From contig NIVC01001987.1 of assembly GCA_002269645.1 (NCBI GenBank), forward strand, positions 1 through 64,000: 64,000 bases of DNA, written 5' to 3'. The stretch comes from Macrostomum lignano. Lineage: Eukaryota. The translations under genes and the position numbers were made by a program. The number at the start of each line of letters is the position of its first letter. The stretch's first letter is position 1. The notes under the pieces are model-generated. The model searched no databases, was not told the DNA's origin, and was given only the letters and a program-made list of their open reading frames with translations. Shown one piece after another: positions 1 through 62,409 of the stretch.

Positions 1-24
1 AGCATTCGTCGGTTTGGCGTCTCG

Positions 25-228
25 TCAGGGAGGGGGCCAGCCGTTTGGCCTCCTGATATACACGGGCAGCATTTGTAAAAGCGGCGTCTCCCTGTTTCGT
101 ACACTCTCCGAAGAGCGGTTTTCACCCTCATTCGCAACTAGAGTCGATGCACAGCATGAGTAATTACACTTGAACTCCACAGACGGTTTGTCTGAGCAAA
201 GCTTTGAAGTTACAGCTGCGGCACCCAT
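25..228 (-). CDS. Small Cys-cluster protein (67 aa, MG- start, CNYSCC) of the Polinton
   Basis: Complete ORF; CTATAAATAG TATA box about 40 bp upstream of the ATG on the minus strand, like the neighbouring viral genes. Confidence 0.5.
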   Translation of the reverse strand: MGAAAVTSKLCSDKPSVEFKCNYSCCASTLVANEGENRSSESVRNRETPLLQMLPVYIRRPNGWPPP

Positions 229-388
229 GATCCAAAAACAGATTATAAATCATGAAAATGATTTCTATTTATAGTTTTTTAACGTCTCGTATTTACTGCT
301 GGTTTCTGCCGCCTCTTTGGTTCGCGAAGTTGGTATGAAGCATGCCTGTAGGCATCGCTGCCACGATCTTCAAATTTTTTAACTTCAT

Positions 389-662
389 TCAGGCCACTGG
401 CTCGGTCTTTGTGGAAGTCGTTGTGGAAATCACTAGTTTCCAATTGCTTGCTCGACTAAAAATCGTCTCGATCAGGATCCGCCTGCCGACTTCTTTTTTC
501 ACACTGACTTCTTCTTGTTGGCGTCGCCCTAGTAGAGCTTTTGCAATATCTGCCTCTTCAGCCAGGGCCCAAAAAGCGGTACTATATTTTGGGCTTGGGC
601 GGTCGCGCCTTTCATTCGATGTAATCTTTTTCAGTAGATCGAAAATATTGCTTCCTGGCCAG
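389..662 (-). pseudogene. Frameshifted C-terminal part of the Polinton GSNIxDL protein
   Basis: A one-base frame change near 660 turns GKPGQEAIFSIY* into (W)PGSNIFDLLKKITSNERRDRPSPKYSTAFWALAEE..., open to a TGA at 389-391. Confidence 0.5.
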
Positions 663-1275
663 GTTTTCCATCAAATACAATTTCCCACGACTTGTTGAAC
701 TCCAAATTCGGGTATCTTTCTGTCAACATGTCCCAAACTCGTTGTTGTCGTTCAGGAAAACGATTACTCTTCTTTTGCTTGATCTGACTTAGTTTATTTT
801 GGAGTTGAGTGTTGTATTCAATGAGTTTTTCATATTCTGTTTTAGATGCAATTTCTCGGGGTGCGCCTTGACTCAGTCTATTAAATTCTTCTTCTGGCAC
901 AACAACGTATTTATTCATTTTAGCGACGAGTAGTCCACCAAACAGGCTTGATATTAGCGGTGCAGCAACAGATGCAAGGATGGGTAAAAAACCACCGACT
1001 TGAGGGTTCGAGAGAAGCATATTCTTCTTCCTATTTATAGACAATTTTGTGTCTGCCAATTCACGCAACGATCTTCTGTATCGCTTTAATCGCAGATACT
1101 GTTTCGGAGAAAGATCAATATTTCCCCGGAGTACGTTGTGACTCAATTCACAGAGACAATGAATCAGTTCCTTGCCTGCACCTCGAATAATTGCCCGCCG
1201 AAGAGTGGGACGGGCTTTGGCGAGCTCTGCGAGCTCGCCGCGACAAGAACATAGTCTGGAGATTCCGTTTGTCAT
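631..1275 (-). CDS. Polinton basic protein with adenovirus pX/mu-like GG|FLP amphipathic tail, in frame with a downstream MNKYVVVP module
   Basis: Likely ATG at 1275, behind the TATA cassette. Arg/Lys-rich body, then QVGGFLPILASVAAPLISSLFGG, resembling the adenoviral pX tail after a GG protease site. Second ATG at 918. Confidence 0.6.
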   Translation of the reverse strand: MTNGISRLCSCRGELAELAKARPTLRRAIIRGAGKELIHCLCELSHNVLRGNIDLSPKQYLRLKRYRRSLRELADTKLSINRKKNMLLSNPQVGGFLPILASVAAPLISSLFGGLLVAKMNKYVVVPEEEFNRLSQGAPREIASKTEYEKLIEYNTQLQNKLSQIKQKKSNRFPERQQRVWDMLTERYPNLEFNKSWEIVFDGKPGQEAIFSIY

Positions 1276-1287
1276 TTTGTTTAGCAC

Positions 1288-1353
1288 AAAGATGTTGGTT
1301 GCAGTGCATCGCAATTTATGCACAATATATTTATAGACAAGTTTCATAGCAGC
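1288..1353 (-). promoter_or_regulatory. TATA promoter/5'UTR cassette, copy A
   Basis: 26-nt exact match (TATTTATAGACAAGTTTCATAGCAGC) to 2107-2132, plus a further ~40 nt of similarity; contains CTATAAATA on the minus strand. Confidence 0.6.
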
Positions 1354-1776
1354 ATTACGATTGTACACCAATTTCAGTGCAGTGGTAATTGACAATAAAA
1401 TTACACAACATTTGTGACAGCACTAAAAATCCAAAAGCGACTGTGAGGAGATGTTGCTAGGTGTCGAGACGGGTACAAAACAAACAATGGAGACACGTAC
1501 CGATTGTGGAACTTCTTAAATTTTACAATGTCTGCTACGGCAGGATCTGTGTTATCAGAGGGTCATCAATCAAATATTTTGACAGTTAAAAATCGAAGCG
1601 GGGTCAATCAACCCCGCATTACTTTTGTTGCTGCGTGGTGGAACGTGCCGAGTTGGGATTTTGTTGCTTAGGGGTGTGGCGATAAAATTGCTGCTGCCGC
1701 AGGGCAATAAATCAAAAGTTTTTGACAGTGGTCAGAAGCGGTCATTTTCATTGCAGATTTGGCTCAATTTCATTCA

Positions 1777-2048
1777 GCCAGCGGGGTGCAGCACGAGTGC
1801 ATTCCGCAGGCCATCCCGAGCGTGGTTGAGCAAGTCAGGCATGGGTAAAACTACCGTGTTTGGGCGGTCCACGCCGCAGCAGCCGGAGACCACTGATGAG
1901 GTTGACACACCTGGTGTGTACTTGGAGATCTCGAACGCTGGACCCTCCTGGTGCGACTACCTCATCAGTGCTCTCCAGCTGGTGCAGCGGGGCCCGCACA
2001 AACACGGTAGTTGGTCTGTGGGATGCATTCGTGCTGCACCCCGCTGGC
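1777..2048 (-). ncRNA. Candidate long hairpin RNA (272 nt imperfect inverted repeat)
   Basis: 1777-1813 pairs with 2012-2048 (37 bp, 4 transition differences). 1849-~1914 pairs with ~1945-2011 (about 11 mismatches). 35-nt unpaired insert on one arm, ~30-nt loop. Lies directly behind TATA cassette copy B. Confidence 0.5.
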
Positions 2049-2061
2049 ATGGGTGAGCTTG

Positions 2062-2132
2062 AAAGATGTTTGTTGCAGTGTACTGCAATTTGTGCATGAT
2101 ATATTTTATTTATAGACAAGTTTCATAGCAGC
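2062..2132 (-). promoter_or_regulatory. TATA promoter/5'UTR cassette, copy B
   Basis: Paralog of 1288-1353; leads to an ATG at 2050 at the foot of the hairpin. Confidence 0.6.
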
Positions 2133-2188
2133 TTGTACGTACATACAAATTTTGTTAAAACAGTAAAGTTACGCAATAGCTATATGGA

Positions 2189-2653
2189 TTAGACATACAA
2201 AACGCTAGTCACATGATCGTACATTTGACAGAGCTCTTTAAAGTTTCGTATACCAAGGAAAACAAGGCGACCATTCTTTCCGCATAATAAACATTTAGCA
2301 TTGCGAAATGGAGACTTTATTACTATTCCATTGAAAACTTCGCACTCCCACTTCACCCATTGGGACCCTGAGTATGCAATTTGGAAAAAATTTGGCCATC
2401 TGTCTACTTCAGCGCGGTAAGTACTAGTGGTAACAACAACAGAAATTGGTTTACATTGAGGAAAAAGACGCAAAACTTGGTTGACTGAGCGACAACCGAA
2501 TACAATTGCAGACAAAGAACGCTGAAAAAAGTTTATTGTACACTTTCCTATCCTCAAATTGATAAGAGCTCTTGGCCGGCGAAATGTCCGTGCGCTCGCC
2601 CAGTCCAAGTCAGGCATGCAGCTCCATTTCGCGCAAAACACTCGTTCACGCAC
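2189..2653 (-). CDS. Polinton hypothetical protein (probable start MPDL at 2617)
   Basis: 154-codon ORF abutting the stop of the upstream gene; CLLC motif near the C-terminus; no recognised family. Confidence 0.45.
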   Translation of the reverse strand: MRERVFCAKWSCMPDLDWASARTFRRPRALINLRIGKCTINFFQRSLSAIVFGCRSVNQVLRLFPQCKPISVVVTTSTYRAEVDRWPNFFQIAYSGSQWVKWECEVFNGIVIKSPFRNAKCLLCGKNGRLVFLGIRNFKELCQMYDHVTSVLYV

Positions 2654-3422
2654 TCGACGTTCTGCAAGTAGATTTTTCGGCAGTTTTCTTTACTTTCGTA
2701 TCCTTCTTGGGGGCTTTCGGTCGCTTCTTTGATTCGTTGGCTGCTACTACTTTCGATTGATGCTGTCGCTTTCTGGCCTGATTTTTAGGCACCTTTGGCT
2801 GCTTCTCCTTGACAAGCTTTGATGGTTTTTTTGCTTTCTTGCTTACTTTCTTGGAGCCTACCTTGATTTTTGGAGGTGGCGTCCAATAGCAACGGTCGAA
2901 TGCCTGTTTGGCTTCTTCGACAAACTGTAGCTGTTGAATTTTTGGCATTGCGGTCAAAACAGCGCCTCGAATCACGGCCGTGTCGAGAGTAAACAGAATC
3001 CTGTAATAGCCGCTCTTGTTTTTGTAATCCTCTACAGGCAGTCCGTTTTGGTCGTACATTTTAAAGTCGTGAGCCAGCCCAAACGCTGCACTGTCGCCTC
3101 CAAACGCTGCACTGTCGCCTCCAAACGCTGGGTTGTAGCCCAGAAGAGCTAGACTTTCACTGGAAAGGTGCTCCGCCACAGTGTTGAAAGTGTAGGGTAT
3201 GCAGCTCTCAATGTGTTTTTGTGCAATGATGATGAATTCGCGACCTTCGTTGTCAGTACGCACACCTTTGACAATCAAAACAGGGACCGCATTGGCCAAG
3301 TAGAGAGGCCCCTGTTCGTCATATTCAATGTCAAACGTTTCAACCCCGTTGAAGCTCGGACCTCGCGGTTTGAGTGCCAGCAGCTCTCGCTTTACGCCGT
3401 TGAAGTCTTGCACTGTCTCCAT
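2646..3422 (-). CDS. Polinton protein, 258 aa, globular N-domain plus Lys-rich tail (possible nucleic-acid-binding protein)
   Basis: ATG-initiated ORF with a TATA cassette about 70 bp upstream; in-frame 21-bp duplication (FGGDSAA x2); C-terminal ~75 aa very Lys-rich. Confidence 0.65.
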   Translation of the reverse strand: METVQDFNGVKRELLALKPRGPSFNGVETFDIEYDEQGPLYLANAVPVLIVKGVRTDNEGREFIIIAQKHIESCIPYTFNTVAEHLSSESLALLGYNPAFGGDSAAFGGDSAAFGLAHDFKMYDQNGLPVEDYKNKSGYYRILFTLDTAVIRGAVLTAMPKIQQLQFVEEAKQAFDRCYWTPPPKIKVGSKKVSKKAKKPSKLVKEKQPKVPKNQARKRQHQSKVVAANESKKRPKAPKKDTKVKKTAEKSTCRTSSA

Positions 3423-3516
3423 GTCTCTTGTCTGTTTAGAAAAATTTGCAGGTACGGGAGCTTGCAGATGCTCCGGGCTGGTGCTTATATACCCGAGAGT
3501 CTCAATAAGTTTTGTT

Positions 3517-4044
3517 TTAATTACACGATAACGAGCTTTTTACGGTGTTGTCGTTGTCGAGGATTCCAGAAAAAATGAACCTTTTGTTCCTATTTTCGGG
3601 TGCTGGCGTTGGAGGCGTGCTGAAATCCTTGCTCCAAGTTGATGGTAGTTCAAGCTTTGGCGGCCTGTTTCTCTTGTGCTTTGGCAGCCAAATCTTTTGT
3701 TGCTCCTCCCACGACGGATTATACAGATCTTGATGGTTCCGAAAACGTATTTTTTGGCGATGCTCCTCACTTAGTATCGGAGCCAGTAATCTCTCCATTC
3801 GTGCTAAATCAGCTTTGAACCTCATTTTGTCCCGTAGTTGCTCATTTATCCTGGCTGCTGCGTAGTCTTGGCTGTCGTAGGGACCTTGATCAATTTCCTC
3901 GACCTTGGCATTGAAGGTGACTAATCGCTCAGAAATCGGTTTGCTGTGGCAAATGCACAACCAGTCCGCAGATTTTTTCAACGTCTTATATTCGTCTTTT
4001 TCCTCGTTCGATAATAGAGGGTAGTCTCTGGAAATCCAGCTCAT
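3517..4044 (-). CDS. Polinton hypothetical protein, 175 aa
   Basis: ATG-initiated ORF behind the second copy of the GTATATAAGC cassette; charged helical composition. Confidence 0.6.
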   Translation of the reverse strand: MSWISRDYPLLSNEEKDEYKTLKKSADWLCICHSKPISERLVTFNAKVEEIDQGPYDSQDYAAARINEQLRDKMRFKADLARMERLLAPILSEEHRQKIRFRNHQDLYNPSWEEQQKIWLPKHKRNRPPKLELPSTWSKDFSTPPTPAPENRNKRFIFSGILDNDNTVKSSLSCN

Positions 4045-4106
4045 TTCTTGTCAAACACTGCGGGATGTTATTTGAGCTTAGAAAACTGCTGAGAAGCCGA
4101 GAAAAG

Positions 4107-4317
4107 TTTGCAGGTACGGGGGCTTGGTGCTCTGGGCTGGTGCTTATATACCCGAGAGTCTCAATAAGTTTTGTTTTAATTACACGATAACAAGCTTTTT
4201 ACGGAGTTGTCGTTATCGAGGATTCCAGTAAAATGAACATTTTGTACCTATTTTTGGTACTGGCGTTGGAAGCGTGTTGAAATCCTTGCTCCAAGTTGTT
4301 GGCAGTTCATGCTTTGG
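4107..4317 (-). repeat. Dispersed duplicate of 3445-3660 (TATA promoter plus decayed 3' end of the 175-aa gene)
   Basis: 58-nt exact identity between 3475-3532 and 4134-4191; flanks are diverged and contain indels. Confidence 0.8.
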
Positions 4318-4699
4318 TAACCAAAATTGCTTGTCAAACACTGCGTTTTCCACATGATTTTTAATTGAACTTGGTGAATTTAGAAAACGGCTGAGAATCC
4401 GAATTTTCTTTATTTATGGTTTGCTGTCTGACAAAATTGACCTGGCATCTTATTAAACGAGAATATTTCATGCATAGAATTTAGTGTTTTTAGACCTTGA
4501 TGACGTGTCTGGCTATAAATTTAGCCTTGTGTCTCGACCGGGTTGTTGCGTAACCCTGCTGCAGGTAGCTATAGCGAGCCGCGCAGGGCAGAGGGGTGGA
4601 CAGCAGCGATTTACAGCGGCTGACTCATCATGCGCGCGCGCGGGGGCCGCCAATTTTGTAGGGGCAACAGAATATCTTCTTGGATGCTAATTCTGCGCG

Positions 4700-5592
4700 T
4701 ACAGTTATGGGGTGGGTGGGCGCGCTACAATTCTGCCAATTTTGGATGTATATATGGACAGTAAATATGGACAGTTATGGGGTGGGTGGGCGCGCTACAA
4801 TTCTGCCAATTTTGGATGTATATATAGACAGTAAATATGGACAGTTATGGGGTGGGTGGGCGCGCTACAATTCTGCCAATTTTGGATGTATATATGGACA
4901 GTAAATATGGATAGTTATGGGATGGGTGGGTGCTACAATTCTGCCAATTTTGGGTGCATATATGGACAGTAAATATGGATAGTTATGGGGTGGGTGGGTG
5001 CTACAATTCTGCCAATTTTGGGTGCATATATGGACAGTAAATATGCATAGTTATGGGGTGGGTGGGTGCTACAATTCTGCCAATTTTGGGTGTATATATG
5101 GACAAGTAATATGGACAGTTATGGGGTGGGTGGGCGCTACCATTCTGCCAATTTTGGTATATGGACAGTTAATATGGACAGTTATGGGGTGGGTGGGCGC
5201 GCTACAATTCTGCCAATTTTGGATGTATATATGGACAGTAAATATGGACAGTTATGGGGTGGGTGGGCGCGCTACAATTCTGCCAATTTTGGATGTATAT
5301 ATAGACAGTAAATATGGACAGTTATGGGGTGGGTGGGCGCTACAATTCTGCCAATTTTGGATGTATATATGGACAGTAAATATGGACAGTTATGGGGTGG
5401 GTGGGTGCTACAATTCTGCCAATTTTGGGTGCATATATGGACAGTAAATATGGATAGTTATGGGGTGGGTGGGTGCTACAATTCTGCCAATTTTGGGTGC
5501 ATATATGGACAAGTAATATAGACAGTTATGGGGTGGGTGGGCGCTACCATTCTGCCAATTTTGGTATATGGACAGTTAATATGGACAGTTAA
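4700..5592. repeat. 70-bp tandem array (~13 units) in the presumed Polinton TIR
   Basis: Unit GGACAGTTATGGGGTGGGTGGGCGCGCTACAATTCTGCCAATTTTGGATGTATATATGGACAGTAAATAT recurs at ~70-bp period. Confidence 0.9.
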
Positions 5593-5670
5593 TTCTGCGT
5601 ACACCAATGCTGCGGGGTTGGGCGCGCTTCTGCGTACAACAACGGCGGAGCGCTAATTATGCGTACTACT
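5593..5670 (-). promoter_or_regulatory. Polinton terminus / putative protein-primed replication origin
   Basis: Three TGCGTAC motifs in the last 80 bp, ending in TACTACT; followed by GGTCCT (candidate 6-bp TSD). Confidence 0.55.
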
Positions 5671-5858
5671 GGTCCTCGCTTCTGTACGACACAGTGTACA
5701 CTGATTACATGTACAATTAGATTTACATGAGAGTTACATGCATATCTCACATAATGACTCTGGACCAATTAGAAGAGGTCTAGTGCATTTAGATAGGCGC
5801 TGAATTTGCATTGGCTCTGACACCCACCTCACCTCCAAAACCCTGCTCTAACTGCACA

Positions 5859-6775
5859 TTACGTAGTAATGTAGAGAGGTGACTCGCCAGTGTTTCGTTG
5901 ATGATTGACGTCAGCTTGTGCTTTGATGAGAGAGGTCACAACTCGGAGGTGACCATTCTCTGAGGCAATGTTGAGAGGTGAGTAGCCATTGACTTCTTGA
6001 AGATTGACGTCAGCTTGTGCTTTGATGAGTGAGTTTACAACTTGGTGGTGACCATTCTGTGATGCAATGTAGAGAGGTATCTCACCAGTGTTTCGTTGAA
6101 GATTAACATCAGCTTGTGCTTTGATGAGTGAGTTCACAACTTGGTGGTGACCATTCTGTGATGCAATTAATGTACAGAGGTGAGCAGCCATCGTCTTCTT
6201 GAAGGCTGACGTCAGCTTGTACTTTGATGAGTGAGTTCACAACTTGATGGAGACCATTCTCAGATGCAATGTAGAGAGGTGACTCGCCAGTGTTTATTTG
6301 TTGATTGATGTCAGCTTGTGCTTTAATGAGTAAGTTCACAACTTGGTGGTGACCATTCTGTGTTGCAATGTAGAGAGGTGAACCGCCTTGGATTTGTTGA
6401 AGATTGACGTCAGCTTGTGCTTTGATGAGTGAGGTCACAACTTGATGATGACCAAAAAGTGATGCAATGTAGAGAGGTGTCTCGCCAGTATTTCGTTGAA
6501 GATTGACGTCAGCTTGGGCTTGAATGAAGATCCCAACAATTTTTACTTTTCCCAATTCACATGCAAAATGAAGCGGTGACATTGATGCTGATGAGCCTAT
6601 CAACGTTAGAAGCTTTCTGCAGGTATCGTGAAATTTTTGTTGCATTTTCGAACATAATGGCTTCCAGGATCTCTTGTTCAGTCACATCGAGGCTCTCGCT
6701 TTGGCTTTCGGACCTGCCGATGGTCTGCATTAGAACTGCTGCAATCGCTGTCAGGGTTCTTAAAAGAGCTTCCAT
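5859..6775 (-). pseudogene. Intronless ankyrin-repeat gene (7 full + 1 truncated repeat) with signal-peptide-like N-terminus, two frameshifts
   Basis: 99-bp repeats encoding G.(S/T)PLYIAS.NGHHQVV..LIKAQADVN. Frame breaks near 6575 and at a 4-bp insertion near 6168. Starts MEALLRTLTAIAAVLMQTIG. Confidence 0.8.
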
Positions 6776-12276: not shown

Positions 12277-14136
12277 ATGGCAGGTGCATACCCATGTGTA
12301 GTGTGTGTACAGCCTGTTGTCAATGGAGAAGAAGCTATTGAGTGCTCGCAGTGTAGCGAATGGCAGCATCGTGCGTGTAACAGTCGCGTTACACCGGAGC
12401 AGTACGCTGCGATGAAACGTGTACGCGAGTTTTTCTGGCTGTGCAACCGATGCCTTAGGCCAACTACAGGTGTGCCTTCATCTGCACCCTCAGCTGCCCC
12501 AGCAGCTACTGTGCCGCCAACCTTTCCAGGATCAGGACCAGGTGGTGAGCCTATTGACCAAGAGGAGCCATTGCTTCCAGTCCCTCATGTAGAAGTGGAA
12601 GAGAGGTTTTTATTTCAGTATCCCGATTTCGCTGACGCTGAACCTGTGCTCGAAGAATCAATTCACGAGCCTCCAGCAGAGTTGGCGCCGCCTCGTAGCC
12701 CACCTCCGCAGGCTTTTGAGCATTTTCCAGGTGCTGGATTCAGCCACGGCAAAGACTTGCTGGTGCAGTACGTCAGGCGTGATCTTGGCCGCTTGATGCA
12801 TGTCAAGAGCCGGCGAAACGGCAACACTTACTACCGTTGCAACAAAACTGCACCGAAATGCCTGGGCTCAGCCGTCAAGCGACAAGACGGAACCATTGAA
12901 GCCTTGAAAGAGCACACCTGCGATCCAGTCGATCAGCCAGTTAAAAAACGACGTATTGCAGCTCAGGTAAAAGCGGAAGCAAAGCGAGCGCCATTCAAAT
13001 CTGCTCGCATCATCGCTGAGGAGAAAGTAAGAGAGCTCCCCCAAGAAGTGCAGGCAGTGATTAATATAGATTCCTTAAGTCGCAATGCTAATTATTCTCG
13101 TAAAAAAAGCCGCCCCGCGGAGCCAGCTAACATCCATTTTCAGGTTGATCCCGAGCACGTGCCCCCAGAGTTCCATTTGCAGGACGTTACTGTGCCAGAG
13201 ACAAATGGACGGCACTTTGTCTTCATGTCTGCGACACAACGGGAGATCCTGTCCACACGACGCATTCTGCACTGCGATGGCACATTCGGCATTGTCAAGG
13301 CGCCTTTCATGCAGCTGTACAGCCTTCATGGAGCCATTCGCTGCGACAATCAAGAGCGTCTGGTACCACTGGCATTCTTTCTGATGTCAGGTAAGGCTCA
13401 GGCTGACTACCAAGCCTGCTTCCGGCAGGTATGGGAGTTGACTGGTAATGCACCTGTCCAATTTATCTGCGACTTTGAGTCGGCCGCCTGGCAAGCCATT
13501 CGGCTAGTTTATCCAGCAGCCCAAGTTCGTGGCTGCTTTTTTCATTACTGCCAGGCTGTTTTCAGGCGAGTCCAGTCTCTTGGATTGCAGGTGCAGTATG
13601 CGACTTCCCCTGCGGTAAAGTTATTAGTACGCATGCTGCTTTCGATTCCTTGTCTGCCGGCTCCTTGCATGCTAGATGGCCTTGCAGCCTGCACTGCAAT
13701 GGCAGGAGAGAATCAGCGCCTTCTAGAGCTAACGGAATACGTGCGTGCAACCTGGCTACAGCACCCTGTGTGGGACCGGGATGCCATCTGCGTCTTTGAG
13801 CGGTTCACAAGGACGAACAATGCCGTGGAGGCTTGGCACGCGCAGCTCAACAAGCGTGGAGAGAAAGCGCTTAATTTCTATCTTCTGCTGACCCTGCTTC
13901 AGCGTGATGCAGAGCGGGTGCAACGTCTGCTGCAGCAAGTTCATCAAGGCCAAGCTGTCACGCACCACCAGCAAGTACATGCTAGGTACGCGCGAGTGAA
14001 TGTCTGCTTTGAGACATTCTGCCGACACCTGAGAGAGGGCACTATGTCGATTGCTGCATTTCTCCGGGCCTGCAGCCATATTCATGCGCAACCTGGATGG
14101 CAGCAAGAGGGCGAGGATGATGCGCAGCAGAATTGA
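12277..14136 (+). CDS. MULE transposase with N-terminal PHD finger and FLYWCH-like domain (619 aa, intact)
   Basis: C4HC3 PHD (CVVC...CSQCSEWQHRAC...WLCNRC); YYRC...C...EH.C; DDE motifs CDGTF, CDFE, RTNNAVEAWH; GCFFHYCQAV (CxxH). Confidence 0.92.
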   Translation: MAGAYPCVVCVQPVVNGEEAIECSQCSEWQHRACNSRVTPEQYAAMKRVREFFWLCNRCLRPTTGVPSSAPSAAPAATVPPTFPGSGPGGEPIDQEEPLLPVPHVEVEERFLFQYPDFADAEPVLEESIHEPPAELAPPRSPPPQAFEHFPGAGFSHGKDLLVQYVRRDLGRLMHVKSRRNGNTYYRCNKTAPKCLGSAVKRQDGTIEALKEHTCDPVDQPVKKRRIAAQVKAEAKRAPFKSARIIAEEKVRELPQEVQAVINIDSLSRNANYSRKKSRPAEPANIHFQVDPEHVPPEFHLQDVTVPETNGRHFVFMSATQREILSTRRILHCDGTFGIVKAPFMQLYSLHGAIRCDNQERLVPLAFFLMSGKAQADYQACFRQVWELTGNAPVQFICDFESAAWQAIRLVYPAAQVRGCFFHYCQAVFRRVQSLGLQVQYATSPAVKLLVRMLLSIPCLPAPCMLDGLAACTAMAGENQRLLELTEYVRATWLQHPVWDRDAICVFERFTRTNNAVEAWHAQLNKRGEKALNFYLLLTLLQRDAERVQRLLQQVHQGQAVTHHQQVHARYARVNVCFETFCRHLREGTMSIAAFLRACSHIHAQPGWQQEGEDDAQQN

Positions 14137-18622: not shown

Positions 18623-18799
18623 CATACTTGGCATGGCGCAACCTAGGGATTCACCTGGCCATTTCTATTGGCAACGTACATATGTAAGTTGCTATTGGAC
18701 AGAATAGTAGTCATGTGACTGCTCTCAGCCAATAGCAACTTCCATGTGTGTGTTGCCAATAAAAATGGCCGGGTGATTCCTAGGGTTGCGCATGTGCAC
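18623..18799 (-). mobile_element. 172-bp palindromic hAT-type MITE, copy 1 (inverted, interrupted at its end by a hAT insertion)
   Basis: Matches the copies at 48699 and 52652 in reverse; the last bases (GTATG) reappear at 28088. Confidence 0.75.
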
Positions 18800-48698: not shown

Positions 48699-48870
48699 CA
48701 TACATGCGCAACCTTGGGAATCACTCGGCCGTTTCTATTGGCAACACACACATGTAAGTCGCTATTGGTTGAGAGCAGTCACGTGACTACTATTCCGTCC
48801 AATAGCGACTTTTATGCGTGTGTTGCCAATAGAAATGGCCGGGTGAATCCTTAGGTTGCGCCCAAGCATG
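48699..48870 (+). mobile_element. 172-bp palindromic hAT-type MITE, copy 2
   Basis: Perfect 8-bp TSD CTCCTAGT; near-complete foldback around a central GTCACGTGAC. Confidence 0.9.
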
Positions 48871-52651: not shown

Positions 52652-52823
52652 CATACATGCGCAAATTTGGGAATCACCCGGCCGTTTCTATTGGCAACAC
52701 ACACATGTAAGTCGCTATTGGCTGAGAGCAGTCACGTGACTACTATTCCGTCCAATAGCGACTTACATGTGTGTGTTGCCAATAGAAACGGCCGAGTGAA
52801 TCCCAAGGTTGCGCCCAAGCATG
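52652..52823 (+). mobile_element. 172-bp palindromic hAT-type MITE, copy 3
   Basis: Perfect 8-bp TSD TTAGTGAT; inserted in the first unit of the 72-bp array. Confidence 0.9.
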
Positions 52824-59196: not shown

Positions 59197-59819
59197 GGCC
59201 TGTCAATTATCCAGCTGTGCAGTCTGCAGTTATAGATTAATGCACCGAATCCGTCCATCCAGTTTTATATTCTGATGATCGCGCGATTGATTTTTGGCTT
59301 TACTTTATATTCCTTTTTTGTCGCACAATTTTGTCAGTTCGCAAGTCTTAGTTTGTGATTTGCGAAGCCTTGAATTGAATTTTGCATTCCTCTTGCTGAC
59401 TCTTCCGTTCTGGAAGCTGGCCTAGCTCATTCCCAGCCTTATAGTTTAGTAATATTAATGATACGTGTAATTATTGCGTTCGTTTTATCATTTCTGTTTT
59501 CTTATTTATTGTACAGAGAGGCCTTTTTAACTGTATAAACTTGCTGCCTTATTATTGAAATTGTTTCCGATTTTTATGGGTGATTTTTTATGCAACCAAG
59601 TTGCTTCGCCTTATCAGAGCAAGGGTGTAATAAGTAATGAGCAGTTTTTAGCTAATTGCAATATTTCCTGCATCTTTTTGTTTTTTGATGACGTTTTCAT
59701 TCTTTGGGCTAGGCTAAGAATGCATTGCTATAAGGTTAGTGAGCAATGTAGTGGGAAGCGGGCCGTTTGTGGAGGGAAATGGTATCTTTATAGAGAATCA
59801 AGGTTTCTCGGATGGAAGC

Positions 59820-62290
59820 GAAGGAGGCGGGTTCTCTGAAGGAGGCGGGCTCTCTGAAGGAGGCGGGCTCTCTGAAGGAGGCGGGCTCTCTGAAGGAGGC
59901 GGGCTCTCTGAAGGAGGCGGGCTCTCTGAAGGAGGCGGGCTCTCTGAAGGAGGCGGGCTCTCTGAAGGAGGCGGGCTCTCTGAAGGAGGCGGGCTCTCTG
60001 AAGGAGGCGGGCTCTCTGAAGGAGGCGGGTTCTCTGAAGGAGGCGGGCTCTCTGAAGGAGGCGGGTTCTCTGAAGGAGGCGGGCTCTCTGAAGGAGGCGG
60101 GCTCTCTGAAGGAGGCGGGCTCTCTGAAGGAGGCGTGTTCTCTGAAGGAGGCGGGCTCTCTGAAGGAGGCGTGTTCTCTGAAGGAGGCGAGCTCTCTGAA
60201 GGAGGCGGGCTCTCTGAAGGAGGCGGGCTCTCTGAAGGAGGCGAGCTCTCTGAAGGAGGCGGGTTCTCTGAAGGAGGCGGGCTCTCTGAAGGAGGCGGGC
60301 TCTCTGAAGAAGGTGGGCTCTCTGAAGGAGGCGGGCTCTCTGAAGGAGGCGGGCTCTCTGAAGGAGGCGGGCTCTCTGAAGGAGGCGAGCTCTCTGAAGG
60401 AGGCGGGTTCTCTGAAGGAGGCGGGCTCTCTGAAGGAGGCGGGCTCTCTGAAGAAGGTGGGCTCTCTGAAGGAGGCGGGCTCTCTGAAGGAGGCGGGCTC
60501 TCTGAAGGAGGCGGGCTCTCTGAAGGAGGCGGGCTCTCTGAAGGTGGGCTCTCTGAAGGAGGCGGGTTCTCTGAAGGAGGCGAGCTCTCTGAAGGAGGCG
60601 GGCTCTCTGAAGGAGGCGGGCTCTCTGAAGAAGGTGGGCTCTCTGAAGGAGGCGGGCTCTCTGAAGGAGGCGGGCTCTCTGAAGGAGGCGGGCTCTCTGA
60701 AGGAGGCGGGCTCTCTGAAGGAGGCGGGCTCTCTGAAGGAGGCGGGCTCTCTGAAGGAGGCGGGTTCTCTGAAGGAGGCGGGCTCTCTGAAGGAGGCGGG
60801 TTCTCTGAAGGAGGCGGGCTCTCTGAAGGAGGCGGGCTCTCTGAAGGAGGCGGGCTCTCTGAAGGAGGCGTGTTCTCTGAAGGAGGCGGGCTCTCTGAAG
60901 GAGGCGTGTTCTCTGAAGGAGGCGAGCTCTCTGAAGGAGGCGGGCTCTCTGAAGGAGGCGGGCTCTCTGAAGGAGGCGAGCTCTCTGAAGGAGGCGGGTT
61001 CTCTGAAGGAGGCGGGCTCTCTGAAGGAGGCGGGCTCTCTGAAGAAGGTGGGCTCTCTGAAGGAGGCGGGCTCTCTGAAGGAGGCGGGCTCTCTGAAGGA
61101 GGCGGGCTCTCTGAAGGAGGCGAGCTCTCTGAAGGAGGCGGGTTCTCTGAAGGAGGCGGGCTCTCTGAAGGAGGCGGGCTCTCTGAAGAAGGTGGGCTCT
61201 CTGAAGGAGGCGGGCTCTCTGAAGGAGGCGGGCTCTCTGAAGGAGGCGGGCTCTCTGAAGGAGGCGGGCTCTCTGAAGGTGGGCTCTCTGAAGGAGGCGG
61301 GTTCTCTGAAGGAGGCGAGCTCTCTGAAGGAGGCGGGCTCTCTGAAGGAGGCGGGCTCTCTGAAGAAGGTGGGCTCTCTGAAGGAGGCGGGCTCTCTGAA
61401 GGAGGCGGGCTCTCTGAAGGAGGCGGGCTCTCTGAAGGAGGCGAGCTCTCTGAAGGAGGCGGGTTCTCTGAAGGAGGCGGGCTCTCTGAAGGAGGCGGGC
61501 TCTCTGAAGAAGGTGGGCTCTCTGAAGGAGGCGGGCTCTCTGAAGGAGGCGGGCTCTCTGAAGAAGGCGGGCTCTCTGAAGGAGGCGGGCTCTCTGAAGG
61601 TGGGCTCTCTGAAGGAGGCGGGTTCTCTGAAGGAGGCGAGCTCTCTGAAGGAGGCGGGCTCTCTGAAGGAGGCGAGCTCTCTGAAGGAGGCGAGCTCTCT
61701 GAAGGAGGCGGGCTCTCTGAAGGAGGCGGGCTCTCTGAAGGAGGCGGGCTCTCTGAAGGAGGCAGGCTCTCTGAAGGAGGCGAGCTCTCTGAAGGAGGCG
61801 GGCTCTCTGAAGGAGGCGAGCTCTCTAAAGAAAATGGGCTCTCTGAAGGAGGCGGGCTCTCTGAAGGAGGCGGGCTCTCTGAAGAAGGTGGGCTCTCTGA
61901 AGGAGGCGGGCTCTCTGAAGGAGGCGGGCTCTCTGAAGGAGGCGGGCTCTCTGAAGGAGGCGGGCTCTCTGGAGATGGGCTCTCTGGAGGCGGGCTCTCT
62001 GAAGGAGGCGGGCTCTCTGAAGGAGGCGAGCTCTCTAAAGAAAATGGGCTCTCTGAAGGAGGCGGGCTCTCTGAAGGAGGCGGGCTCTCTGAAGAAGGTG
62101 GGCTCTCTGAAGGAGGCGGGCTCTCTGAAGGAGGCGGGCTCTCTGAAGGAGGCGGGCTCTCTGAAGGAGGCGGGCTCTCTGAAGGAGGCGGGCTCTCTGG
62201 AGATGGGCTCTCTGAAGGAGGCGGGCTCTCTGAAGGAGGCGGGCCCTCTGAAGGAGGCGGGCTCTCTGAAGGAGGCGAGCTCTCTGAAGT
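59820..62290. repeat. 18-bp VNTR (GAAGGAGGCGGGCTCTCT), ~137 units
   Basis: Direct reading; variant pattern repeats at a 735-bp period (GCGTGTTC at 60133 and 60868). Confidence 0.97.
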
Positions 62291-62409
62291 AAGGTGGGCT
62301 CTCTGTGGCGACTGGCTCCATAAAGTGGCCAGCGGGAATTTTGTGCATTATAGGGCCAACTGCTTTGTCTCACCCGCATCTATCGCAGCTCTGCCAGCCC
62401 AGCTACAAA

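What the first reader, a model, noticed from the sequence alone, without database searches (positions are those of the whole stretch)
1777..2132. Promoter-driven 272-nt hairpin among the terminal genes of a Polinton: candidate viral dsRNA decoy or small-RNA precursor
Seen: a long imperfect inverted repeat (37-bp outer stem, ~65-bp inner stem with dispersed mismatches, one 35-nt bulge). It begins exactly where a duplicated TATA/5'UTR cassette (2062-2132, paralog of the one before the pX-like gene) places its ATG. Differences between the arms are mostly non-synonymous in the frames checked, so this is not a conserved coding duplication. Known: adenoviruses, Polinton relatives, make VA RNAs that antagonise PKR/Dicer, and animal hairpin RNAs yield endo-siRNAs. 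Inference: this is a dedicated structured-RNA gene of the element, either an anti-silencing decoy or a self-regulatory siRNA source. I know of no such described Polinton gene.
Basis: partly seen in the sequence, partly recalled or inferred. Interest (0 to 1): 0.75.

Follow-up and report, generated by a model that had tools for sequence, protein, structure and literature searches.

The report
Polinton hairpin built from host gene
A virus-like jumping element, in what is likely a marine flatworm's genome, carries a captured piece of the host's UAP56/DDX39 RNA-helicase gene duplicated back-to-back next to a copy of a promoter-like sequence of the element, a layout that would make a natural RNA-interference trigger against an essential host gene if it is transcribed and diced, which has not been shown.

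Summary
The 272-nt hairpin is real (z -15 and -13) and present in independent runs. Both arms are decayed copies of about 135 nt of the host's UAP56/DDX39 coding sequence. Evidence: PDB E 4e-6 with 16 of 16 hits in that family; collinear tblastn hits; and a contig in all four laid runs that matches the left arm at about 88%, then continues as the host gene. On the minus strand the order is duplicated TATA cassette, sense copy, loop, antisense copy, like a laboratory RNAi construct. Many sister elements lack the 780-nt cassette (direct join 1340-2121). The host is likely Macrostomum, where ddx39 RNAi is lethal and ddx39 marks stem and germ cells; fly UAP56 serves piRNA production. Best reading (0.5): a Polinton hairpin RNA yielding small RNAs that mildly dampen host DDX39. 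Main rival (0.3): a decaying by-product of capture and snap-back replication. Strand, small RNAs and knock-down are untested. Closest precedents are TART-A/nxf2 capture, rice miR820 and fly hpRNAs. Five literature searches found no Polinton case.

The parts
1777..1813 (.). Left arm of outer stem; on + strand it reads as host DDX39 codons ~70-81 (P0026 numbering)
1814..1848 (.). 35-nt bulge; also host DDX39-derived (codons ~82-96) with an 11-letter loss; the right arm lacks this stretch
   Evidence: (tables 4, 7)
1849..1919 (.). Left arm of inner stem; DDX39-derived on + strand to 1901
1920..1941 (.). Loop; on - strand 1953-1882 aligns weakly with DDX39 codons 124-154, with a 7-codon gap
   Evidence: E 0.003 as a linked hit
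1942..2048 (-). Right arm (inner 1942-2012, outer 2012-2048): sense copy of the same DDX39 fragment on the - strand
2062..2132 (-). Duplicated TATA/5'-leader cassette (TATAAA at 2114), predicted promoter of the hairpin
   Evidence: function inferred
1288..1353 (-). Other copy of the cassette, in front of the pX-like gene (TATAAA at 1335)
1341..2120 (.). 780-nt accessory cassette (spacer + hairpin + cassette copy) absent from many sister elements
   Evidence: table 5: joint 1340-2121 in 3 of 4 runs; X11 record 3 (114 letters = 84 + 30) shows a direct join
1354..1776 (.). Non-coding spacer downstream of the hairpin on the - strand; related pieces occur in other contigs; no canonical poly(A) hexamer on the - strand
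1835..2050 (-). 71-aa ORF: chimera of out-of-frame, in-frame-decayed and antisense DDX39 sequence; not a conserved protein
931..1275 (-). pX-like Polinton gene (~120 aa in relatives; a frame break near 926 in this copy)
2189..2617 (-). Conserved accessory ORF upstream of the cassette (68-69% to two unnamed relatives)
4701..5670 (.). Element end: 68-nt minisatellite (13 copies) and terminus reading AGTAGT on the - strand at 5670
   Evidence: AGTAGT as a Polinton end is recalled

Best explanation
The hairpin is an inverted duplication of a captured fragment of the host's UAP56/DDX39 coding sequence, carried by a likely Polinton behind a duplicate of its pX TATA cassette, and it is likely transcribed into a long hairpin RNA that host Dicer would cut into small RNAs predicted to dampen host DDX39 mRNA. 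Shown: the stems, the DDX39 origin of both arms, the order on the minus strand (cassette, sense copy, loop, antisense copy), and the presence of the cassette in only some family members. Inferred: (1) a host fragment was captured and then copied back on itself by snap-back synthesis during element replication; (2) the duplicated TATA drives a minus-strand Pol II transcript; (3) the best guides come from the outer stem, whose antisense strand differs from the host mRNA at no more than one of 32 positions (1785-1816); (4) the benefit is weaker TREX-dependent host defence (piRNA-precursor export, as in flies) or host mRNA-export shut-off late in a viral cycle; (5) the effect must be mild or restricted in time or tissue, because full knock-down kills the presumed host.
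For: DDX39 origin: three separate frames searched against PDB returned only UAP56/DDX39/Sub2 chains (13 of 13, 11 of 11, 11 of 11 hits; each E only 0.09-1.8). The left arm read through with X at its break gives E 4e-6, 16 of 16 hits in the family or untitled helicase chains of Sub2 length. tblastn with DDX39 proteins hits both arms and the loop collinearly (E 9e-7 and 0.003). In all 4 runs laid, a contig matches 1780/1787-1901 (X16: 14 other letters plus 11 gap letters in 122) and then continues off the window with the same loose end. Read by eye, the loose ends encode the neighbouring residues of the Macrostomum DDX39 proteins. Eight printed differences plus five that the protein requires account for 13 of the 14, all outside 1785-1816. 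Contigs from two runs guessed to be RNA, of two studies, bridge the loop (X11 1885-2136, X16 1806-2031). Five element-side changes sit on both arms and keep pairing (1853 and 1866 printed; 1784, 1892 and 1893 inferred from the protein). Inner-stem mismatches are 10 transversions to 3 transitions, against 10 to 21 among printed sister-copy differences (Fisher p 0.009, post hoc), as in diced hairpins with true internal mismatches. Host context: Dicer, Drosha and PIWIs are present (PMC4604429 passages); dsRNA soaking silences ddx39 and kills; ddx39 is expressed in gonads and neoblasts (PMC5173321 and PMC11075559 passages); fly UAP56 is needed for dual-strand piRNA clusters (PMC4826399 passages). 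Captured fragments of 140-235 bp at ~90% identity do trigger host-gene piRNAs in Drosophila (PMC13534243 section 8).
Against: No small RNA, strand, 5' end or knock-down could be examined; contigs cannot show them, the RNA label of X11 and X16 is a guess, and DNA may be present in those runs. The plus strand folds better (-187 vs -176 kcal/mol; outer stem 36 uninterrupted pairs with G-U on plus, broken after 20 on minus). The minus strand has no canonical poly(A) hexamer between 1776 and 1086, whereas the plus strand has one at 2286, so the promoter link is unproven. The arms look decayed: about 12% from the host, deletions in both, and inner-stem guides would carry 3-4 mismatches. The clean 32-nt run is not significant (permutation P 0.11; Fisher 0.03-0.11), nor is the transversion excess over the whole hairpin (p 0.13). 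The five shared changes reduce the match to the host and may simply predate the duplication. Hairpin-less sisters appear commoner (contig depth 99.8 and 648 for the direct join, against 21.4 and 68.8 for the hairpin contig; depth is no copy number), unlike the Drosophila capture elements, which have higher copy numbers. A piRNA role for UAP56 is shown in flies, not flatworms, and silencing an essential export factor could harm the element's own mRNAs.
Confidence: 0.5

Rival explanations
1. Neutral relic: the element picked up a host DDX39 fragment by accident, snap-back replication inverted it, and it is now decaying and being deleted by recombination between the two promoter copies.
For: Substitutions and deletions on both arms; left-only and right-only changes about equal (5 vs 5-6 in the 90 host-derived paired columns); a direct 1340-2121 join in 3 of 4 runs; a second duplicated block at 3438-3660/4100-4317 shows this region duplicates readily; a 13-nt word shared with 2606-2618 could be the microhomology used in capture.
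Against: The sense arm starts 12 nt behind an intact TATA cassette; the captured gene is a TREX/piRNA-pathway factor, the class repeatedly captured in flies (PMC13534243); pairing survives ~16% arm divergence (17 of 107 columns) with isolated mismatches; the inner stem is transversion-rich.
Confidence: 0.3
2. Sequence-independent dsRNA decoy: the host fragment was only raw material, and the RNA works by occupying Dicer, ADAR or dsRNA sensors.
For: Five changes shared by both arms keep pairing but lower the host match; inner-stem mismatches are dispersed; one RNA-guess contig differs at 2019, which would be A-to-G on the minus strand at an A-C mismatch (an allele explains it equally, since the letter is the host's).
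Against: No Rfam match; TATA layout rather than Pol III; the outer stem stays nearly identical to host mRNA; nothing indicates the very high abundance that a decoy needs.
Confidence: 0.1
3. DNA-level element: the inverted repeat matters as a cruciform or single-strand hairpin in replication or recombination of the element.
For: Folds as DNA at -104 and -97 kcal/mol; Polintons are thought to replicate through single-stranded intermediates (recalled).
Against: It is internal, absent from many sisters, and made of host coding sequence placed behind a promoter copy.
Confidence: 0.05
4. The 71-aa minus-strand ORF is the product, for example a dominant-negative DDX39 fragment.
For: Its ATG sits where the pX ATG sits relative to the cassette; the 36-nt gap brings a stretch into the DDX39 frame.
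Against: First 13 codons are out of the DDX39 frame, motif I is lost, the last third is antisense sequence, and there is no Pfam hit.
Confidence: 0.03

Closest known systems
Drosophila telomeric retrotransposons that captured piRNA-pathway gene fragments (TART-A/nxf2, PMC7785250; aub and piwi captures, PMC13534243)
   Same: A mobile element carries a 140-235 bp, 76-95% identical piece of a host gene tied to piRNA silencing and is proposed to silence it by small RNAs; here ~135 nt at ~88%. nxf2 and UAP56 are both nuclear-export family factors.
   Different: Those are LINE retroelements whose captured pieces feed piRNAs from the element's transcripts; the sections read describe no hairpin. Here a capsid-type DNA element has turned the piece into a sense-loop-antisense hairpin with its own promoter copy. 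Small RNAs were shown there, not here, and capture families there have higher copy numbers.
Rice miR820 in CACTA transposons targeting OsDRM2 (PMC3459959, abstract)
   Same: Transposon-borne hairpin whose small RNA represses a host gene.
   Different: Plant miRNA with one defined guide and shown co-evolution; the abstract does not describe a long captured coding fragment. Here an animal, a long stem made of the target's coding sequence, and no demonstrated guide.
Drosophila hpRNAs such as Nmy/Tmy (PMC12941216 and 10.1101/2025.11.28.691189, passages)
   Same: Long imperfect hairpin born by inverted duplication of a target-gene copy; young and patchily distributed.
   Different: hpRNAs are host loci that silence selfish drivers; here the direction is reversed, with a selfish element holding the hairpin against an essential host gene.
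Adenovirus VA RNAs (recalled; Rfam scan)
   Same: Structured non-coding RNA in a relative of the same viral lineage.
   Different: VA RNAs are Pol III, ~160 nt and not host-gene-derived; no Rfam match here.
Polinton/Maverick elements, adintoviruses (PMC8502044 and 10.1101/2023.08.22.554363, passages)
   Same: pX-like gene whose relative lies in an integrase-protease module; terminal repeat region.
   Different: No hairpin-RNA gene mentioned (0 occurrences of 'hairpin' in PMC8502044).

Membership tests
Polinton/Maverick (the carrier element) | Virion-module gene with pX-like domain | tested here: met
   8 of 50 aligned relatives hit Pfam Adeno_PX (best 6.4e-7); the window's own protein did not. 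Atlas top cluster 0.96 with viral members, recognition below threshold.
Polinton/Maverick (the carrier element) | Retroviral-type integrase, pPolB, ATPase, capsid and protease in the element | not testable with these tools
   Beyond the window start; no genome held. A relative (L003, 34% to the pX-like protein, E 6.5e-9) has rve integrase (2e-11) and adenovirus-type protease (2.6e-5) downstream. The window's 2-121 frame did not align with that integrase.
Polinton/Maverick (the carrier element) | Terminal inverted repeats and 5-8 bp target-site duplication | tested here: inconclusive
   One end only: minisatellite and AGTAGT at 5670; the motif's meaning is recalled; the other end is outside the window.
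hpRNA (hairpin-RNA source of endo-siRNAs) | Long inverted repeat within one predicted transcript | tested here: met
hpRNA (hairpin-RNA source of endo-siRNAs) | Extensive complementarity to a target mRNA, from duplication of target sequence | tested here: met
hpRNA (hairpin-RNA source of endo-siRNAs) | Single-stranded primary transcript across both arms | tested here: inconclusive
   Loop-bridging contigs in two runs guessed to be RNA; no strand, DNA not excluded
hpRNA (hairpin-RNA source of endo-siRNAs) | 21-22-nt Dicer products from the arms, and target repression | not testable with these tools
   Only contigs were served; no raw small-RNA reads
TE host-gene capture for anti-silencing (TART-A/nxf2 type) | Element carries a host gene fragment, direction host to element | tested here: met
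   The host version keeps the conserved protein; the element's copies have non-synonymous changes and indels
TE host-gene capture for anti-silencing (TART-A/nxf2 type) | Captured gene acts in silencing of the element | not testable with these tools
   Shown for fly UAP56 (PMC4826399 passages); unknown in flatworms
TE host-gene capture for anti-silencing (TART-A/nxf2 type) | Capture lineage has higher copy number; host region evolves faster | tested here: inconclusive
   Contig depths point the other way but are no copy number; the captured region is identical in 8 of 9 cluster members at protein level; host DNA not available
Adenovirus VA RNA | Match to the VA covariance model; Pol III layout | tested here: not met
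   0 Rfam matches at E<=1 in 1-6000; TATA cassette upstream

The most novel reading that the evidence does not exclude
An animal Polinton/adintovirus has assembled its own RNAi transgene: a promoter-driven sense-loop-antisense hairpin from the host's essential UAP56/DDX39 gene, which uses the host's Dicer pathway to knock down a TREX/piRNA-export helicase in stem and germ cells. That would be counter-defence or host shut-off encoded as captured host sequence rather than as protein.
Probability: 0.4. Interest if true: 0.9.

Novelty: new variant of a known kind. Interest (0 to 1): 0.77.

Why it matters
Small-RNA counter-defence by mobile elements against animal hosts is known from few cases, the ones found here being Drosophila telomeric retroelements acting through piRNAs. 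A virus-like DNA element that folds a captured host gene into a promoter-driven hairpin would add a second route (Dicer/hpRNA), point to UAP56/TREX as a restriction point for Polintons, and give the first handle on how these elements act on host cells. It is directly testable: the likely host is an RNAi model with published small-RNA data, and ddx39 is its standard lethal RNAi control. It also suggests a simple screen, namely checking the hairpins noted in other Polintons against host coding sequence.

Tried and rejected
No genome is held, so sister copies could not be aligned and covariation was not tested. Run search: no RNA holder listed on record; 4 of the 24 listed runs were laid, all contigs. 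One search printed 40 of 69 difference rows, 12 of 34 indel rows, 24 of 48 loose ends and 31 of 150 pieces. Depth ratios were computed (host/hairpin 1.4-1.7 in X5 and X3, 154-440 in X11 and X16; hairpin/pX 0.10-0.13 vs 0.57-0.66), but contig depth cannot rank genes, so they are not used as evidence of expression. X16 has no cover over the spacer, which proves nothing; no silent control stretch was laid. The 2019 change in X11 cannot be called editing without DNA of the same strain. Related loci: none for the pX-like protein in viral contigs or in the first metagenome scan; one distant locus in the second, with no long non-homopolymer inverted repeat among the 25 longest shown. An 18-letter arm motif gave 2 matches in viral contigs, neither extending beyond ~21 nt: treated as chance. 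MITE reading rejected: the arms are host coding sequence and match nothing else of length in the window. Spacer frames: 0 Pfam hits in 5 of the 19 frames listed. TBP-likeness of ORF 2189-2617: weak Pfam and PDB hints only; the profile search did not return TBP, and the model was too poor to search (pLDDT 38). Literature searches for a prior description: 3 papers; 1; 0; 34 hold three of four terms, 15 listed; 49, 12 listed; by title and abstract start none describes a host-derived Polinton hairpin. The library lacks most subscription papers, and no supplements were read; repeat annotations there could bear on novelty.

Full report
Observation. The inverted repeat is as described: outer arms 1777-1813/2012-2048, inner arms 1849-1919/1942-2012, and a 35-nt bulge. 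It folds far better than shuffles on both strands (z -15.3 minus, -12.6 plus; 0 of 100 shuffles each). The cassette 2062-2132 is an 83% copy of 1288-1353, each with a minus-strand TATAAA. Contigs from independent runs span the loop and both junction regions, so it is not an assembly error. Rfam gives nothing at E<=1.

The carrier. Only about 5.7 kb of the element's end lies in the window, and no genome is held. The gene at 931-1275 has 1,847 relatives at E<=0.001; 8 of 50 aligned members hit Pfam Adeno_PX, though the window's own protein does not. One distant relative lies before an rve integrase and an adenovirus-type protease. The end carries a 68-nt minisatellite and reads AGTAGT at 5670 (the motif's meaning is recalled). 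A Polinton is likely, but its core genes could not be seen, and the frame at 2-121 did not align with the relative's integrase.

What the arms are. Laying 4 of 24 listed runs on 900-2400 showed, in all four, a contig that follows 1780/1787-1901 and then leaves the window with the same loose end. Three separate frames of the arms searched against PDB hit only UAP56/DDX39/Sub2 (13 of 13, 11 of 11, 11 of 11; individually weak). The left arm read through with X at its break scores E 4e-6. A protein search returned DEAD-box hits including a Macrostomum lignano DDX39; its cluster has 8 named M. lignano members and 1 unnamed. The loose ends, translated by eye, give the residues flanking the captured piece in these proteins; Dugesia differs at the downstream motif. 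The host is therefore M. lignano or a close relative (inference). tblastn places DDX39 codons 67-116 on the plus strand at 1768-1906 (E 9e-7). On the minus strand it places codons 69-80 and ~98-114 in the right arm and, weakly, ~124-154 in the loop with a 7-codon gap. Read from the TATA cassette, the minus strand is thus sense copy, loop, antisense copy.

How close to the host. X16 record 12 has 14 other letters and 11 gap letters over 122 positions (88%). Eight are printed (1817, 1822, 1846, 1853, 1863, 1866, 1868, 1884), and the protein requires five more (1784, 1875, 1889 or 1890, 1892, 1893). So at most one difference can lie in 1785-1816. This clean run is not significant by itself (P 0.11; Fisher 0.03-0.11). 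Five changes are shared by both arms and keep pairing; five are left-only and five or six right-only. The shared ones either predate the inversion or were copied across the stem; I cannot tell which. Inner-stem mismatches are transversion-rich (3 transitions of 13, against 21 of 31 printed sister differences outside the hairpin; p 0.009, post hoc), the outer-stem ones are all transitions, and the whole hairpin is not significant (p 0.13).

Distribution. A direct join from 1340 to 2121 stands in 3 of 4 runs, so many sisters have one cassette and no hairpin. A further type has different sequence between 1276 and 2207. At least two slightly different hairpin versions exist (1822 and 1884 vary). 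Depth suggests that hairpin-less types are commoner, but it is no copy number. The sisters' cassette differs from the pX-side copy at only 3 of 84 letters, while the two copies in the window differ by 17%. That leans towards loss by recombination between the copies, although relaxed selection on the second copy fits too (inference).

Expression. Contigs from two runs guessed to be RNA, of two studies, bridge the loop (X11 1885-2136; X16 1806-2031). They show neither strand nor level, and DNA may be present. The plus strand folds better and has a poly(A) hexamer at 2286; the minus strand has the promoter-like cassette but no canonical hexamer before 1086. Either strand would yield RNA antisense to DDX39.

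Mechanism. Most likely (0.5) the hairpin RNA is diced and mildly represses host DDX39. M. lignano has Dicer, Drosha and PIWIs (PMC4604429, passages). ddx39 is expressed in gonads and neoblasts and its knock-down by dsRNA is lethal (PMC5173321, PMC11075559, passages); that these papers' gene is the one matched here is assumed. Fly UAP56 is required for dual-strand piRNA clusters and for bulk mRNA export (PMC4826399, passages), giving two possible benefits: weaker piRNA defence or late host shut-off. Lethality implies a weak or restricted effect, and the inner-stem mismatches may be attenuation. The main rival (0.3) is a neutral, decaying product of capture and snap-back synthesis; decoy (0.1), DNA-level element (0.05) and coding (0.03) readings are weaker.

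Comparison and novelty. It would work like TART-A/nxf2 and the aub/piwi captures (PMC7785250 abstract and Discussion; PMC13534243 abstract and section 8). There, fragments of 140-235 bp at ~90% identity triggered host-gene piRNAs and those at 79-82% did not. It is built like a fly hpRNA (PMC12941216 and 10.1101/2025.11.28.691189, passages) with host and parasite reversed, and it parallels rice miR820 (PMC3459959, abstract). Membership in these kinds hinges on small RNAs that could not be examined. It is not a VA RNA. Five searches (listings only) found no host-derived Polinton hairpin; PMC8502044 (passages) and 10.1101/2023.08.22.554363 (passages) mention none. Supplements were not read. Earlier notes of this scan list other Polinton hairpin cassettes and one bacterial element with an inverted host fragment; these are unchecked leads, not support.

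Verdict. Observation confirmed; interpretation redirected from decoy or self-regulation to a captured-host-gene hairpin. The origin is well supported and the function is inferred. New variant of a known kind; interest 0.77.

Noticed in passing
window 1831-1843 and 2606-2618: A 13-nt word in the DDX39-derived bulge recurs in the coding start of the neighbouring ORF (expected 0.01 matches per window by chance); possible microhomology for the capture, or a self-target if the plus strand is read.
   Followed up: partly
window 2189-2617 (-): Conserved accessory ORF; two unnamed relatives give weak TATA-binding-protein hints (Pfam E 0.0024 and 0.044; PDB E 0.33), not confirmed by profile search or fold.
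   Followed up: partly
window 3438-3660 and 4100-4317: A second duplicated block (90% over 223 columns) around the starts of two accessory ORFs.
   Followed up: no
window ~926: This copy has a frame break that runs the pX-like ORF into the next ORF; relatives end at ~120 aa. Mutation or assembly error not resolved.
   Followed up: partly
window 1354-1776: Spacer with four TGACA-type motifs; related pieces occur in other contigs with loose ends.
   Followed up: no
window 18635-18795, 48702-48862, 52655-52815: Three copies of a 161-nt MITE-like element with 63-nt arms in the host DNA.
   Followed up: no
window 12277-14136 (+): MULE transposase ORF with a PHD finger.
   Followed up: no
window 59676-62350: About 2.6 kb of an 18-nt tandem repeat, open in several frames.
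   Followed up: no
L003 326-5639: Polinton-like module in a metagenome contig: pX-like, unknown, integrase, chromo, two unassigned ORFs, adenovirus-type protease.
   Followed up: partly
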